DNA of 64,000 nucleotides from sequence record MN655998.1, one strand, 5' to 3'. This DNA comes from Escherichia phage E26. Positions 3,553 through 59,398 of this stretch are shown one piece after another (position 1 is the first letter of the stretch; each line of letters opens with the position of its first letter). The notes under the pieces are model-generated. The model made no database searches. It saw only the letters and a list, made by a program, of their open reading frames with translations, and was not told the DNA's origin. Made by a program: the position numbers and the translations under genes.

Positions 3553-3583
3553 AAAAAAGCCCCATCATTGATGGGGCAAAATA
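3553..3583. terminator. GC hairpin GCCCCATCA/TGATGGGGC flanked by A-run and T-run (bidirectional terminator candidate)
   Basis: Perfect 9-bp palindrome; T-run on minus strand after stem, A-run before on plus. Confidence 0.45.
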
Positions 3584-3610
3584 AACCAATTAAAATCGGT
3601 TATCAACAAA

Positions 3611-3787
3611 TTACATTAACAGCATTGTTTGCTCTACGAGTTGTTCTTGTTCTTCGCCGTTCGCATCTTCACTAATCGAACGTTCTGTTACTAGCTGTAA
3701 GCAGTAGCCAGTGTGAACAACGCCGTTTTCTGTCTGGACGGCTAACGCATCCTCGACAGGTTGTTTACAACAAATACAGATTTTCAT
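3611..3787 (-). CDS. UvsY.-2-like small Cys-rich protein (58 aa)
   Basis: Hand-translated MKICICCKQPVEDALAVQTENGVVHTGYCLQLV...; CxCC...C pattern; position between uvsW.1 and uvsY. Confidence 0.4.
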   Translation of the reverse strand: MKICICCKQPVEDALAVQTENGVVHTGYCLQLVTERSISEDANGEEQEQLVEQTMLLM

Positions 3788-55018: not shown

Positions 55019-55266
55019 TATTGACGCATAGACGCGCCTGAATCACATTTTGACGCTGTATGATGAAAACATGTAGCGTACCAGTCATCGGCTTGTTTGT
55101 CTTCGTCAGAAAACGCGTAATTTCGTTGTATGCCGTTTTCTACTTTGACCAGTGCAATAGCTGTTTCTGGAAGATCAATCAATCGGACAAAATCACCATC
55201 TTCCCACTCTACACGAGCAATATCATAGCCCATCTCAAAGTATACAATCGCTTGTTCTAATTTCAT
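55018..55266 (-). CDS. DUF2829-like (Tad2-family-like) small protein
   Basis: 82 aa; N-terminal EQAIxx...GYDIARVEW and C-terminal QADDW resemble the DUF2829 pattern; weak. Confidence 0.3.
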   Translation of the reverse strand: MKLEQAIVYFEMGYDIARVEWEDGDFVRLIDLPETAIALVKVENGIQRNYAFSDEDKQADDWYATCFHHTASKCDSGASMRQ

Positions 55267-55586
55267 TCTGGAAACTTCCCGTAAACATTCTCTGCCAGCT
55301 TACGTGCATCTTTTACAATATCTTTCATGTAATGACTATAATTTTTAGCTAGATCAATGATGCAATCAACAAAGAAGTAATAGCGTCGCAGTGCTACCAG
55401 CTCAACATCTTCAAGATGACCATTTTCTCCAATCGCTGAAATATGTTTAAATTCCTTTCGGATCGCGTCCATCGCTACATTAACTTCTTTTATAATATCT
55501 TTCGTATTATATGCACCTCGACTAATCAAAATTTTGGTTAGGTCTTCTGCTTTTTCGTGAAAGTTGTCAATTTCAAACTCGATCAT
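55263..55586 (-). CDS. hypothetical protein, EVN...GKF paralog a (start at MIEFEID)
   Basis: ORF track starts at GTG; ATG with RBS AGAGGTGA preferred; C-terminus ENVYGKFPE. Confidence 0.45.
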   Translation of the reverse strand: MIEFEIDNFHEKAEDLTKILISRGAYNTKDIIKEVNVAMDAIRKEFKHISAIGENGHLEDVELVALRRYYFFVDCIIDLAKNYSHYMKDIVKDARKLAENVYGKFPE

Positions 55587-55700
55587 AATCACCTCTCATA
55601 ATTTCACGCTGTTGTTTCAACATTTTTTCGTGGTTTGCTAATTCTATACCTTGTAATAGCATAACCAGTGCAATTTTCAATGATTCATCATCTTTCATAA

Positions 55701-56979: not shown

Positions 56980-57258
56980 TTATCTTCGGTTGTACTTCTG
57001 CCACTTTCGGTAATACTGCTTGTAATGTTGTTTAATGTTTGTTGGTTCGTCACTATACATGTTATCAACCATCATGTCAATAAGACCTTCCGGTGTTTGA
57101 TAGTTACCCGCTCGAATGAGTTCCTTAATCAAAAGATCTTGTGTCGCTTTATACTTGACAATAACAATTGTCTTTTCTGCCTTTCCAATTCCGATCCGGT
57201 CGTTAGCTCTCATAGCATCCCACCAATCTTTTTTAAACTTCATGTTGTTAAATTTCAT
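56980..57258 (-). CDS. hypothetical basic protein (92 aa)
   Basis: ORF track. Confidence 0.45.
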   Translation of the reverse strand: MKFNNMKFKKDWWDAMRANDRIGIGKAEKTIVIVKYKATQDLLIKELIRAGNYQTPEGLIDMMVDNMYSDEPTNIKQHYKQYYRKWQKYNRR

Positions 57259-57261
57259 AAT

Positions 57262-58062
57262 TTAACCCTTCTTATATTCGCAAACATATTGAGTACCATA
57301 ATCATAGCTAATGCGACCTTTCTCGATGACTTCAAAGCGGATTTCATCGTTTTCCCCTACCCACATTTTGTACTCGTTGAAGTATCCTGCTACATCCGGT
57401 TTGCTCATACCAACAACCATATTTTTATATTGTTTGCTGCGTGTCAGATTTGATTTAAACACTTCGCGCTCATCAACATATACGAAAGAAGACAATTCAC
57501 CTTCGGTCATGGTCATTTTCAGCTTGCCGCCCTTGTTGCCATAAGTAGAGTTGCCATACAATGGATCTTTGCGGCTGTCTGTTTCAATACCATCAATGAT
57601 TTTCCATGTAAATTTTGCAATGCACTGATAAGTGATAGATCCAGAGATTTTCTCTTCTTTCTTCTGTTCTTCCACCACTTTTTCTTCCTGTTTCGGTTGT
57701 TCTTCGTCAACCTTCACAGAAGTCTCTGAATCGCTTTCTGATGCGGTTTCTTCTTTAGGTAATACATTCATCAAGTTTTGGATTTGAGCGTTATATACAG
57801 CCTCCAGTGGCTGGATCTGCCCGATATTGATCATTGTATCACGAACAGTTTTATTCCAGTTGCGTTGCTCTTGTTTAAGAGACGGATCAATCTTAACAGC
57901 CTTAACATACACTTCATGAAGTTTAGAATCCAGTGCGGAGATTGACTCATTAGCACAAATAAACTTCTCTGATTTGGTAGTAGCTTTAGCGCAATCGAAG
58001 GAAGCAGCATTAGCACCGAAAGCAGTAGCAGAAAGAACGATAGCAGCGATAATGTTTTTCAT
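57262..58062 (-). CDS. secreted protein with DUF1311 (LprI lysozyme-inhibitor-like) N-terminal domain
   Basis: Signal peptide MKNIIAAIVLSATAFGANA; CAKATTKSEKFICANESISALDSKLHEVY...QRNWNKTVRD matches the DUF1311 Cys/QRxW pattern. Confidence 0.5.
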   Translation of the reverse strand: MKNIIAAIVLSATAFGANAASFDCAKATTKSEKFICANESISALDSKLHEVYVKAVKIDPSLKQEQRNWNKTVRDTMINIGQIQPLEAVYNAQIQNLMNVLPKEETASESDSETSVKVDEEQPKQEEKVVEEQKKEEKISGSITYQCIAKFTWKIIDGIETDSRKDPLYGNSTYGNKGGKLKMTMTEGELSSFVYVDEREVFKSNLTRSKQYKNMVVGMSKPDVAGYFNEYKMWVGENDEIRFEVIEKGRISYDYGTQYVCEYKKG

Positions 58063-58090
58063 AATATATTCCTCAATGTTTTTCTTGATG

Positions 58091-58124
58091 GGAGTATCTT
58101 ACTACTCCCTTAATCCGGTGTCAA
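58091..58124 (-). promoter_or_regulatory. PeSL early promoter (TTGACA, stem GGGAGTA/TACTCCC)
   Basis: As 20679 element. Confidence 0.5.
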
Positions 58125-58287: not shown

Positions 58288-58322
58288 TTTGATTCTCCTT
58301 CGTTGTCTTGATGAGTTTAGTA

Positions 58323-58347
58323 TAGGGGATCGCCGATCCCCTGTCAA
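58323..58347 (-). promoter_or_regulatory. PeSL early promoter (TTGACA - GGGGATCGGCGATCCCC - TATACT)
   Basis: Hexamers plus palindrome. Confidence 0.5.
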
Positions 58348-58359
58348 CTATTTTTTAAA

Positions 58360-58620
58360 TTATTTTCGCCATTCACCGGAAACAATGAAGTTTGTAAAGT
58401 GATTGTGGTCCGTGATAATGTCATTAAGTACCATATGCGGATATGCTTTAGTGTAATCACGTTTACGATCAGTCATCCAGCCAACGAAAGTCGGTGCAAA
58501 GTACGGCACACCGTCAGACGATGCCATATTAAACCCTTTATCAACCATAAATGCAGCCGCCCGAAGATTTTTAATTGAAGTAGTGCGACTAATTTCAAAA
58601 ACTTTATCGGTAAAATTCAT
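58360..58620 (-). CDS. hypothetical protein (86 aa)
   Basis: ORF track. Confidence 0.45.
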   Translation of the reverse strand: MNFTDKVFEISRTTSIKNLRAAAFMVDKGFNMASSDGVPYFAPTFVGWMTDRKRDYTKAYPHMVLNDIITDHNHFTNFIVSGEWRK

Positions 58621-58897: not shown

Positions 58898-59140
58898 TTA
58901 GAAATTTTTCGCTTCTTCTTCGGTCATCATAACCGCGCATTCGTGCATAACTTTGAAAACCGGATCAATCATGTCGAATGCTTCGCGAGACAGTTTACGA
59001 GAAGCGATTTTGATTGCTTCAACGTCTTCTACTACAGGAACAAAAACAGTTTTCAGTTCATCGAGCACGGCAGCTTCTTTTTCATTCAGGAAGATTCCAG
59101 CGTCGTACAGTGCAACTTCGATAACATTAACTTTAACCAT
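58898..59140 (-). CDS. hypothetical acidic protein (80 aa; start at MVKVNVIE)
   Basis: ORF track with internal ATG, RBS GGAGGAAAT. Confidence 0.45.
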   Translation of the reverse strand: MVKVNVIEVALYDAGIFLNEKEAAVLDELKTVFVPVVEDVEAIKIASRKLSREAFDMIDPVFKVMHECAVMMTEEEAKNF

Positions 59141-59173
59141 TTTTATTTCCTCCAGTTCGCTTCGGTATGTTAG

Positions 59174-59203
59174 TATAATACTACCGATGACCTTTGGTGT
59201 CAA
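59174..59203 (-). promoter_or_regulatory. early promoter candidate (TTGACA ... TATACT/ATTATA)
   Basis: -35 exact, -10 less certain. Confidence 0.4.
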
Positions 59204-59398
59204 CTAGTTTTTGTTATTTTCGTGAAAATTTTTCGTCTCCTCTAGGTTCTTTTCGACCTTCATCCATTCCGCGTATTCTTGCGCGGCTACTTTCGGATTT
59301 AGTCCGTCTTCGTACATTGCTTCAAGTAATTCTTCGTCGGTGGGCTTATACCCTAGATAAGCCTCCACCTGATTTTTCCAAATTTTATACCAGTTCAT
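59204..59398 (-). CDS. hypothetical protein (64 aa; start at MNWYKIW)
   Basis: Internal ATG chosen to avoid 65-nt overlap with upstream gene. Confidence 0.35.
   Translation of the reverse strand: MNWYKIWKNQVEAYLGYKPTDEELLEAMYEDGLNPKVAAQEYAEWMKVEKNLEETKNFHENNKN

What the first reader, a model, noticed from the sequence alone, without database searches (positions are those of the whole stretch)
57262..58062. Secreted DUF1311 / LprI-like protein: possible periplasmic lysozyme inhibitor (spackle-like role)
The product has a cleavable signal peptide (AFGANA|AS) and an N-terminal domain matching the DUF1311 pattern (C-x5-E-x2-IC ... LDxxL ... QRNW ... RD) found in lysozyme-inhibitor LprI-type proteins; the C-terminal ~130 aa is unrelated. 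A phage exporting a lysozyme-inhibitor-like protein to the periplasm early could block tail lysozyme of superinfecting phage, as T4 Spackle does, or hold its own endolysin in check.
Basis: partly seen in the sequence, partly recalled or inferred. Interest (0 to 1): 0.6.

Follow-up and report, generated by a model that had tools for sequence, protein, structure and literature searches.

The report
Secreted phage protein with swappable barrel
This T4-like coliphage gene encodes an exported two-part periplasmic protein with a nearly invariant DUF1311 front half and a beta-barrel back half that occurs in many swapped versions, in related lytic phages and in an E. coli prophage, which suggests a specificity-carrying protective factor whose target is unknown.

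Summary
ORF 57262-58062 (-) is a real 266-aa gene, the orthologue of RB49/Phi1 ORF262. It has a Sec-type signal peptide, an N-terminal match to Pfam LprI/DUF1311 above the gathering score, an acidic disordered linker and an unrelated C-terminal domain.

The lysozyme-inhibitor reading is only weakly founded. In M. tuberculosis LprI the lysozyme-binding part is the separate MliC domain, and the DUF1311 protein ScwA does not protect against lysozyme. The phage's own endolysin is an M15 peptidase, not a lysozyme.

New here:
- The C-terminal domain is a confidently modelled eight-stranded beta-barrel with one invariant Cys pair and no relatives outside this family. It is not MliC by sequence or motif.
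- It is a recombination-bounded cassette with at least six deeply diverged types, set in genomes that are otherwise 95-100% identical.
- The same gene, with the same cassette pool, is the last gene of a hicB-integrated E. coli prophage, where it carries a truncated remnant of its Krischvirus neighbour.

Best reading, at moderate confidence: a self-sufficient periplasmic neutraliser, either superinfection-exclusion or immunity-like, with the barrel setting target specificity. Krischviruses carry a gp5 tail lysozyme and no detectable Spackle, so a Spackle-like role remains possible but untested.

The parts
58096..58124 (-). Sigma-70-like early promoter (TTGACA-17-TAAGAT). The GGGAGTA...TACTCCC inverted repeat spans the -10 hexamer.
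   Evidence: (10 of 12 consensus matches), sequence, and a promoter annotated at the homologous position in GEC-3S. Function is inferred.
58069..58074 (-). Shine-Dalgarno GAGGAA, 6 nt before the ATG
   Evidence: Read directly from the sequence.
57262..58062 (-). CDS, 266 aa; orthologue of RB49p262 / phi1p262 / GEC-3S BN201_0263
58006..58062 (-). Signal peptide, aa 1-19, with predicted SPase I cleavage ANA|AS
   Evidence: Sequence features, invariant junction in distant homologues, no lipobox.
57763..58005 (-). N-terminal helical DUF1311/LprI-N-like module, aa 20-100, with the C24/C36 pair and the LDSKL, QRNW and RD motifs. It is near-invariant across the family.
   Evidence: Pfam PF07007 at 24.6 bits against a cutoff of 22; alignments A1/A2; profile search. 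The AF2 model shows three helices but with low pLDDT of 50-60.
57652..57762 (-). Acidic low-complexity linker, aa 101-137 (14 D/E, 6 K/R). It is predicted disordered and varies in length between variants (15-39 aa).
   Evidence: pLDDT below 50 for residues 100-137.
57265..57651 (-). C-terminal eight-stranded beta-barrel domain, aa 138-266. C147 (first strand) and C261 (last strand) are invariant, so a clamp disulfide is presumed.
57277..57660 (-). Recombination-bounded variable cassette. DNA identity to RB49, FL04 and SFHK24 falls from 95-100% to 28-57% inside these limits.
   Evidence: Sliding-window identity and base-level alignment.
56980..57258 (-). Downstream ORF261 (92 aa, no signal peptide). 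A second, partly linked variable segment. Its first ~24 codons survive as a truncated remnant after the prophage copy of the gene.

Best explanation
Anatomy, shown or modelled. The gene encodes a Sec-exported, soluble periplasmic protein with three parts:
- a near-invariant, truncated DUF1311 helical module with one Cys pair;
- a roughly 35-aa acidic disordered tether;
- a roughly 125-aa eight-stranded beta-barrel whose first and last strands carry the only invariant cysteines.

Evolution, shown. The barrel is an allelic cassette. At least six deeply diverged types (15-45% aa identity) sit between conserved flanks in genomes that are otherwise 95-100% identical. The same gene and the same cassette pool occur as a stand-alone unit at the end of a hicB-integrated E. 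coli prophage.

Mechanism, inferred. The protein is made from a host-type early promoter, or constitutively from the prophage, and folds oxidatively in the periplasm. It then acts on its own as a stoichiometric binder that neutralises a foreign protein acting in the periplasm. The most plausible target is a cell-wall hydrolase brought in from outside, either the tail lysozyme of a superinfecting phage (Spackle-like exclusion) or a T6SS or bacteriocin muramidase. The conserved DUF1311 module would supply a common function, and the polymorphic barrel would set which target variant is recognised.
For: Export and early expression.

DUF1311 membership.

DUF1311 proteins as periplasmic toxin antagonists: Etsi4 neutralises Etse4, and immunity genes are predicted beside lysozyme-like and WHIX effectors.

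Cassette polymorphism with sharp breakpoints at about 57660 and about 57277. Type counts are C 45, A 10, D 1 and F 2 among Krischvirus records, and B2, E and F2 in prophages. Polymorphism of this kind is typical of specificity determinants under frequency-dependent selection.

Self-sufficiency:
- 26 of 5426 complete E. coli genomes carry the gene as the last prophage gene next to the truncated hicB.
- That copy has its own weak promoter and a 10-bp-stem terminator.
- It is followed by a 71-nt remnant of Krischvirus ORF261.
So the gene was captured from a T4-like genome and kept without other T4-like genes.

All 58 Krischvirus records keep the gene. RB49 has a gp5 lysozyme domain but no detectable Spackle, and no imm is annotated.
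Against: There is no experimental datum for this protein or any close homologue.

DUF1311 itself has never been shown to inhibit lysozyme, and ScwA does not.

No toxin or effector gene lies next to the gene in the phage or the prophage. There is no PADLOC match.

Marfaviruses carry both Spackle and a DUF1311 two-module protein.

Cassette replacement could also reflect relaxed constraint in a hyperplastic region (PMC2839356). However, retention of the fold, of the Cys pair and of the gene in every genome argues for selection.
Confidence: 0.4

Rival explanations
1. Strict Spackle analogue. The DUF1311 module itself binds and inhibits the gp5 tail lysozyme of superinfecting Krischvirus or T-even phages.
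For: The protein is periplasmic and early. RB49 gp5 carries a Phage_lysozyme domain. No Spackle homologue was found in RB49 1-82 kb or this window. DUF1311 is linked to lysozyme-like T6SS effectors by gene neighbourhood.
Against: The lysozyme-inhibitor label comes from LprI, which also has an MliC domain, and ScwA gives no lysozyme resistance. The idea does not explain why the invariant part would be the inhibitor while a hypervariable barrel is kept. The prophage carriers have no gp5. Marfaviruses have both Spackle and this type of protein. There is no sequence or fold relation to Spackle, which is a 75-aa helical bundle (PMC7677548).
Confidence: 0.2
2. ScwA-like modulator of host peptidoglycan enzymes. 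The protein binds or stabilises host lytic transglycosylases or other autolysins to remodel the wall for the phage's benefit, for example in lysis timing or cell enlargement.
For: ScwA is the only enterobacterial DUF1311 protein with phenotypic data. It is periplasmic and depends on disulfides, it raises MltD levels, and prolonged overproduction lyses cells. The gene lies about 2.5 kb from the holin gene t.
Against: Conserved host enzymes do not explain a deeply polymorphic barrel. Constitutive expression from a prophage moron would be risky if the protein promoted autolysis. ScwA has a different architecture, with DUF1311 at the C-terminus and four cysteines.
Confidence: 0.15
3. Small-ligand or envelope-lipid binding protein. 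The barrel would act as a lipocalin/YceI-like carrier that sequesters or delivers a hydrophobic molecule in the periplasm.
Against: All hits have low sequence identity (2-13%) and are of the generic 8-stranded class. The domain is highly charged (29% D/E/K/R). Allelic hypervariability is unusual for ligand carriers. No conserved pocket residues exist, since only C, G and C are invariant.
Confidence: 0.08
4. Receptor or entry-channel masking from the periplasmic side, functionally like T5 Llp. The barrel would bind a polymorphic outer- or inner-membrane protein that incoming phages use.
For: The protein is periplasmic, sits at the prophage moron position and is polymorphic.
Against: It is not a lipoprotein and has no membrane anchor. 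The same cassette types occur in unrelated phage lineages, lytic T4-like and temperate, that are unlikely to share receptors. Nothing links it to a particular receptor.
Confidence: 0.1
5. Inhibitor of the phage's own endolysin.
For: Only the family name.
Against: The RB49 endolysin is Peptidase_M15_4, not a lysozyme, and has no signal peptide context. The gene is kept by a prophage of a different phage type.
Confidence: 0.03

Closest known systems
DUF1311 / LprI N-terminal-like family (Pfam PF07007), including E. coli YecT-type proteins, the EHEC T6SS immunity protein Etsi4 and Salmonella ScwA
   Same: The N-module passes the Pfam gathering score. It shares the N-terminal Cys pair and the LD..L / QR.W / R(D) motifs, a signal peptide and periplasmic life with disulfides.
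   Different: Only the first two-thirds of the domain model is matched and two of the usual four cysteines are present. The module is fused through a disordered acidic tether to an orphan beta-barrel. The gene is phage-borne, and no partner toxin gene lies next to it.
Mycobacterium tuberculosis LprI (DUF1311 + MliC lipoprotein, lysozyme inhibitor)
   Same: Same order of parts: signal peptide, DUF1311 module, then an eight-stranded beta-barrel.
   Different: The barrel here is not MliC: no HMM or profile similarity and no SGxxY motif. The protein is soluble rather than a lipoprotein, and its barrel is polymorphic.
MliC/PliC/PhiA periplasmic lysozyme-inhibitor fold
   Different: There is no sequence relationship, and the lysozyme-binding SGxxY loop is absent. 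PhiA likewise lacks that motif and showed no lysozyme or SagA inhibition in vitro. Many unrelated barrels score equally well.
T4 Spackle (gp61.3)
   Same: An early, signal-peptide-bearing, disulfide-containing periplasmic phage protein. Krischviruses appear to lack Spackle while having a gp5 lysozyme.
   Different: Spackle is a conserved 75-aa alpha-helical bundle with no homology to this protein. This protein has two modules and is polymorphic. Marfaviruses encode both.
PHROG 4675 / 33858 proteins of Klebsiella Marfaviruses, Aeromonas T4-like and jumbo phages, and Salmonella SSU5
   Same: The same signal peptide junction (AASFDC), DUF1311 N-module, low-complexity linker and a roughly 100-aa C-domain with exactly two cysteines.
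   Different: Their C-domain is a different sequence family: HMM scores against the barrel profile are about 0. Phage 65 has the two modules as separate ORFs.

Membership tests
DUF1311 / LprI (PF07007) | Pfam HMM score at or above the gathering threshold | tested here: met
   24.6 bits against 22, E 3.5e-5, aa 24-76. All 21 family members match, with best E 9.7e-6. PGAP names the prophage copy 'lysozyme inhibitor LprI family protein'.
DUF1311 / LprI (PF07007) | Complete domain with the four conserved cysteines | tested here: not met
   Only model positions 1-71 of 106 align. The N-module has two cysteines, C24 and C36. A profile of the N-modules hits a PDB DUF1311-like chain (6ar7) only at E 0.11.
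DUF1311 / LprI (PF07007) | Secreted or periplasmic location | tested here: inconclusive
   A canonical SPase I signal is seen by inspection and is conserved in distant homologues. No dedicated predictor or experiment was available.
DUF1311 / LprI (PF07007) | Lysozyme inhibition, the activity implied by the family name | not testable with these tools
   The literature attributes lysozyme binding to the MliC domain of LprI, and ScwA is negative.
MliC/PliC (PF09864) | HMM or profile similarity to the family | tested here: not met
   No Pfam hit in any of 21 members even at E up to 10. The profile against PDB sequences finds no MliC or PliC. hhalign against an MliC alignment gives probability 0.6%.
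MliC/PliC (PF09864) | SGxxY lysozyme-binding loop motif | tested here: not met
   No conserved SGxxY exists; only C, G and C are invariant across cassette types. The motif definition is from PMC8334348.
MliC/PliC (PF09864) | Eight-stranded antiparallel beta-barrel clamped by a disulfide | tested here: inconclusive
T4 Spackle (gp61.3) | Sequence or fold homology to Spackle | tested here: not met
   Spackle is a 75-aa helical bundle. tblastn with two Spackle sequences finds nothing in RB49 1-82 kb or this window. The protein here is DUF1311 plus a barrel.
T4 Spackle (gp61.3) | Binds and inhibits the gp5 lysozyme domain and excludes superinfecting phage | not testable with these tools
   Only the precondition was checked: RB49 gp5 has a Phage_lysozyme domain.
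T6SS-type DUF1311 immunity protein (Etsi4-like) | Encoded next to its cognate effector | tested here: not met
   The neighbours are small hypothetical early genes in phages. In E. coli they are prophage genes and hicAB.
Prophage moron | Autonomous unit (own promoter and terminator) at a prophage end that is dispensable for the phage cycle | tested here: met
   It is the last gene before the truncated hicB and lies at contig ends of about 35-kb IMG/VR prophage predictions. A promoter-like site lies 40 nt upstream and a 10-bp-stem terminator downstream. These are consensus matches only.
Diversity-generating retroelement target | Template repeat copy of the variable region | tested here: not met
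   No second copy of the cassette DNA exists in the 64-kb window. The variation is whole-cassette replacement.

The most novel reading that the evidence does not exclude
This is a previously unrecognised class of allele-specific periplasmic exclusion or immunity determinant. A constant DUF1311 'handle' is tethered to a recombination-shuffled beta-barrel 'specificity cassette'. The cassette pool is shared between virulent T4-like Krischviruses and temperate E. coli prophages, and each barrel type neutralises a different variant of an incoming phage or toxin protein. That would make it a periplasmic counterpart of polymorphic toxin-immunity or tail-fibre adhesin cassettes.
Probability: 0.25. Interest if true: 0.75.

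Novelty: new variant of a known kind. Interest (0 to 1): 0.5.

Why it matters
Krischviruses are widely used therapeutic coliphages, including Phi1 and GEC-3S. They lack the two classical T4 exclusion genes, imm and sp, so how they exclude competitors is unknown.

This gene is exported, expressed early and universally retained, and it is polymorphic exactly in one folded domain. It has also been captured by a temperate prophage as a stand-alone unit. That makes it a concrete, cheaply testable candidate for exclusion or envelope protection.

If the barrel types prove to have different specificities, this would add a new periplasmic specificity system to phage-phage and phage-bacterium conflict. 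It would give the DUF1311 family a defined role. It would also matter for designing phage cocktails, because lysogens or infected cells carrying one type might exclude particular cocktail members.

If nothing is found, the gene remains an example of intragenic module swapping in T4-type hyperplastic regions.

Tried and rejected
1. MliC/PliC membership of the barrel. By eye, YQC / FVYxD / WxxG / terminal C looked like E. coli MliC. It was rejected: hhalign probability is 0.6%, no member has a Pfam hit, the profile against PDB sequences finds no MliC, and SGxxY is absent.

2. Remote homologues of the barrel. An exhaustive HMM search of 1.84 billion representatives found only the family itself. 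The other hits (P0021, P0022 and similar) are long tandem-repeat proteins scoring by summed weak matches.

3. Fold searches.
- PDB Foldseek gave a best E of 2.8e-3.
- BFVD returned the RB49 orthologue and a few unnamed phage proteins.
- afdb50 was not available.

4. NCBIfam gave only a signal-peptide-level match to BhsA. PADLOC gave nothing.

5. The genome-contig scan, with one genome per species, returned one irrelevant 28%-identity locus. The family with this N-module is confined to some E. coli strains and Krischviruses.

6. A DGR or internal template as the source of variability was rejected, because the window holds no repeat of the cassette.

7. Own-endolysin control was rejected, because the endolysin is an M15 peptidase.

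8. The profile of N-modules against PDB gave no significant hit (best relevant E 0.11), so DUF1311 assignment rests on Pfam and.

9. The full-length AF2 model gave a poor N-module (pLDDT 50-60). That part of the alignment is nearly invariant, so no fold claim is made for the N-module.
Full report
**What is at the coordinates.**
The minus strand of 57262-58062 holds a 266-aa ORF with an ATG start. A GAGGAA ribosome-binding site lies 6 nt upstream. A sigma-70-like TTGACA-17-TAAGAT site lies at 58124-58096, and the GEC-3S record annotates an early promoter at the homologous place.

The window comes from a Krischvirus, an RB49/Phi1/GEC-3S-like T4-type coliphage. The surrounding 3.5 kb is 94-97% identical to 58 such records. 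The gene is the orthologue of RB49p262 / phi1p262. It lies in the leftward early 'hyperplastic' cluster between the holin gene t and topoisomerase gene 52.

It matches PHROG 14799 (unknown function) end to end at E 2.5e-156. All 58 Krischvirus-like records have it. It is a real, conserved gene.

The N-terminus MKNIIAAIVLSATAFGANA|ASFDC has the features of an SPase I signal. There is one basic residue, a 12-residue hydrophobic core (mean Kyte-Doolittle 2.5), A at -3 and -1, and no lipobox. The junction A-x-A|ASFDC is invariant in homologues from Klebsiella, Aeromonas and Salmonella phages that are only 37-41% identical.

Pfam PF07007 (LprI, formerly DUF1311) matches aa 24-76 at 24.6 bits, above the gathering score of 22. 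Every one of 21 family members matches, and so do the distant phage homologues. A profile of the phage N-modules retrieves bacterial proteins carrying PF07007 or named YecT/DUF1311.

Two corrections apply. The motif spacing is C-x7-E-x2-IC. Only model positions 1-71 of 106 are matched, so the module has two of the usual four cysteines.

The DUF1311 resemblance of the RB49 gene was already tabulated in 2006 (PMC1524935). UniProt and PGAP now name the orthologues 'LprI-like'. The C-terminal ~130 aa indeed match nothing by sequence.

**Anatomy of the protein.**
AlphaFold2 on the full alignment gives three parts:
- low-confidence helices for aa 20-100, because that part of the alignment is nearly invariant;
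- a disordered segment at 100-137, an acidic low-complexity tether whose length varies from 15 to 39 aa between variants;
- a confident all-beta C-domain.

Modelled alone, the C-domain reaches pLDDT 91.5 and pTM 0.84 with eight strands. Across all variants only C147, G158 and C261 are invariant. The two cysteines sit in the first and last strands, which adjoin each other in a closed eight-stranded barrel, so a clamp disulfide is inferred. Model coordinates could not be inspected.

The domain is 29% charged and lacks a C-terminal aromatic beta-signal. It is therefore a soluble barrel, not an outer-membrane protein.

**What the barrel resembles.**

I noticed by eye a pattern shared with E. coli MliC (YQC ... 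FVYxD ... WxxG ... C), so I tested it:
- the MliC sequence was verified against PDB 2F09;
- an MliC/PliC alignment was built;
- hhalign against the barrel profile gave probability 0.6%;
- the family-defining SGxxY loop (PMC8334348) is absent.

An exhaustive HMM search of 1.84 billion representative proteins found only the family itself. The remaining hits are tandem-repeat artefacts. So the barrel is an orphan domain. It has the same general fold class as MliC but is not a demonstrable member.

**The main new finding: a constant front half and a swapped back half.**
In the protein alignment, residues 1-~125 are 95-100% identical in all relatives. The C-domain falls into at least six types:
- A: this window, Phi1 and GEC-3S;
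- B and B2;
- C: RB49;
- D;
- E;
- F.

These types share only 15-45% identity.

At the DNA level, identity to RB49, FL04 and SFHK24 is 95-100% on both sides of the domain. It drops abruptly to 28-57% between about 57660, which lies inside the linker near codon 134, and about 57277, which lies at the conserved QYVC codons and stop. A second variable patch lies in the downstream ORF261 in RB49 and FL04 but not in SFHK24, so the two are separable.

This pattern is replacement from an old allele pool by recombination at conserved flanks. It is not in-place drift, and there is no DGR-type template.

Among sequenced Krischvirus records the counts are type C 45, A 10, D 1 and F 2, the F records both being JSE.

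**The gene also lives in E. coli prophages.**
Of 5426 complete E. coli genomes, 26 carry one chromosomal copy. Its first 381-414 nt are 94-96% identical to the phage gene, and the rest differs.

In two strains examined it is the last gene of a prophage inserted in hicB, with its neighbours on the opposite strand. Nine IMG/VR prophage predictions of about 23-36 kb end with it. The prophage copies carry types B2, E and F2, which come from the same cassette family.

Homology to the phage starts 6 nt before the ATG. It resumes for about 71 nt after the stop codon, where the prophage retains a truncated copy of the first ~24 codons of Krischvirus ORF261. This indicates capture from a T4-like genome.

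The prophage copy has a different upstream region with a weak promoter-like site, and a 10-bp-stem terminator downstream. That is a moron-like layout. The protein therefore does something useful without any other T4-like gene, and probably during lysogeny.

**A wider family.**
The following phages encode proteins of 232-250 aa with the same signal junction, DUF1311 N-module and low-complexity linker, plus a C-domain of about 100 aa with exactly two cysteines:
- Klebsiella Marfaviruses;
- Aeromonas T4-like phages;
- Aeromonas jumbo phages;
- Salmonella SSU5.

That C-domain belongs to another sequence family. These proteins correspond to PHROG 4675 and 33858. In Aeromonas phage 65 the two modules are separate adjacent ORFs. 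The design 'DUF1311 handle + tether + disulfide-bonded variable domain' is thus recurrent in phages.

**What DUF1311 tells us, and what it does not.**
The Pfam name suggests lysozyme inhibition. However, M. tuberculosis LprI also contains an MliC domain, the established lysozyme binder. The authors of the ScwA study state that there is no experimental evidence for the DUF1311 part. They also show that periplasmic, disulfide-dependent ScwA gives no lysozyme resistance but raises MltD levels (PMC7933661).

On the other side, DUF1311 proteins with signal peptides are predicted immunity proteins next to lysozyme-like and WHIX T6SS effectors (PMC9796082, PMC12135965). EHEC Etsi4, a DUF1311 protein, rescues cells from the periplasmic toxin Etse4 (PMC12981562).

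So 'periplasmic antagonist of a cell-wall-directed toxin' is a fair functional prior for the family. 'Lysozyme inhibitor' is not established.

**Context for a Spackle-like role.**
RB49 gp5 has OB, Phage_lysozyme and C-terminal repeat domains. The RB49 61-41 interval and the gene 43 neighbourhood show no annotated sp or imm. tblastn with a Marfavirus Spackle and with a T4 Spackle sequence recalled from memory finds nothing in RB49 1-82 kb or in this window. About 18 kb of structural genes were not checked.

Spackle is a conserved 75-aa helical bundle (PMC7677548) and is unrelated to this protein. Marfaviruses have both Spackle and a DUF1311 two-module protein. The RB49 endolysin is a Peptidase_M15_4 enzyme, which removes the 'own endolysin' option.

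**Most likely mechanism.**
- Shown: the gene, its modules and its polymorphism, the recombination limits, its presence in prophages, and the absence of sequence relatives for the barrel.
- Modelled: the eight-stranded barrel.
- Inferred: export, the two disulfides, early expression, and function.

I consider it most likely (about 0.4) that this is a self-sufficient periplasmic neutraliser, meaning a superinfection-exclusion or immunity-like factor. It would bind a protein that enters the periplasm from outside, with the barrel determining which variant is recognised.

Within that reading, a peptidoglycan hydrolase target is the leading candidate. This could be the tail lysozyme of a superinfecting phage, or a T6SS or bacteriocin muramidase. 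It rests only on family precedent and on the LprI-like architecture.

The rivals are:
- a strict DUF1311-mediated Spackle analogue (0.2);
- a ScwA-like modulator of host autolysins (0.15);
- receptor or channel masking (0.1);
- a ligand-binding barrel (0.08);
- endolysin control (0.03).

**Novelty and verdict.**
The DUF1311 annotation is not new. I found no description of the following points in the searched literature:
- the barrel fold;
- its cassette polymorphism with defined breakpoints;
- the shared allele pool between virulent T4-like phages and a temperate prophage;
- the ORF261 remnant that marks the direction of transfer.

I class this as a new variant of a known kind, with interest about 0.5. 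Function remains untested, and the decisive experiments are simple.

Noticed in passing
window 58319-58347 (minus-strand promoter TTGACA-17-TATACT) overlapping the stem-loop at 58322-58344 (ATAGGGGATCGCCGATCCCCTGT): A strong promoter-like site (11 of 12) fused to a 10-bp G+C-rich stem-loop. It looks like one of the PeSL (promoter-early stem-loop) cassettes described for RB49 and Phi1 as recombination sites for ORF shuffling (PMC2839356).
   Followed up: partly
window 58380-58619 (ORF 58360-58620, 86 aa): This small gene is present here and in Phi1 (ORF263.1, 98-100% identical). It is entirely absent from RB49, FL04 and SFHK24 at this position, so it is an insertion/deletion polymorphism directly upstream of the studied gene's neighbour.
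   Followed up: partly
window 58914-59213 (ORF 58898-59203, 101 aa): This segment is shared with FL04 and SFHK24 (87-100% identity) but absent from RB49 and Phi1. It is another ORF-sized indel in the same early cluster.
   Followed up: no
window 56980-57258 (ORF261, 92 aa): The gene immediately downstream is itself mosaic. RB49 and FL04 carry a diverged central part (39-78% DNA identity) with conserved patches, while SFHK24 matches the window. Its 5' ~71 nt persist as a truncated remnant after the prophage copy of the DUF1311 gene in E. coli.
   Followed up: partly
window 55308-55599 (ORF 55263-55592, 109 aa): This ORF is 98-100% identical to RB49, FL04 and Phi1 but only 52-67% identical to Shigella phage SFHK24. 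It is another replaced segment in the cluster.
   Followed up: no
L003 1-13000 and L004 1-13000 (E. coli strains H2 and 14EC017): A roughly 35-kb prophage is integrated into hicB, leaving a truncated antitoxin gene next to an intact hicA toxin gene. The prophage has terminase gpA, portal, a ~2-kb major capsid gene and a Rha regulator. It is present in 26 of 5426 complete E. coli genomes, judged by the DUF1311 gene.
   Followed up: partly
L013 2501-3162 (Aeromonas phage 65, ST65p072 and ST65p073): The DUF1311 module (91 aa, with signal peptide) and the two-Cys C-domain (117 aa, no signal peptide) are annotated as separate adjacent ORFs. This is either a frameshift or pseudogene, or a natural split of the two modules.
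   Followed up: no
L008 about 3583-3660 (Phi1, ORF261-ORF260 intergenic), equivalent to window about 56977: Phi1 carries extra tandem copies of a ~24-nt unit (GTTGACAAGTACAACCGAAAATAA) containing a -35-like TTGACA. The window, RB49, FL04 and SFHK24 lack these copies.
   Followed up: no
L002 607-921 and 3001-3753 (Klebsiella phage PWKp16): This Marfavirus encodes an annotated Spackle between helicase gene 41 and primase gene 61, and a 250-aa DUF1311 two-module protein between primase and dCTPase. The two periplasmic proteins therefore coexist in one genome.
   Followed up: partly
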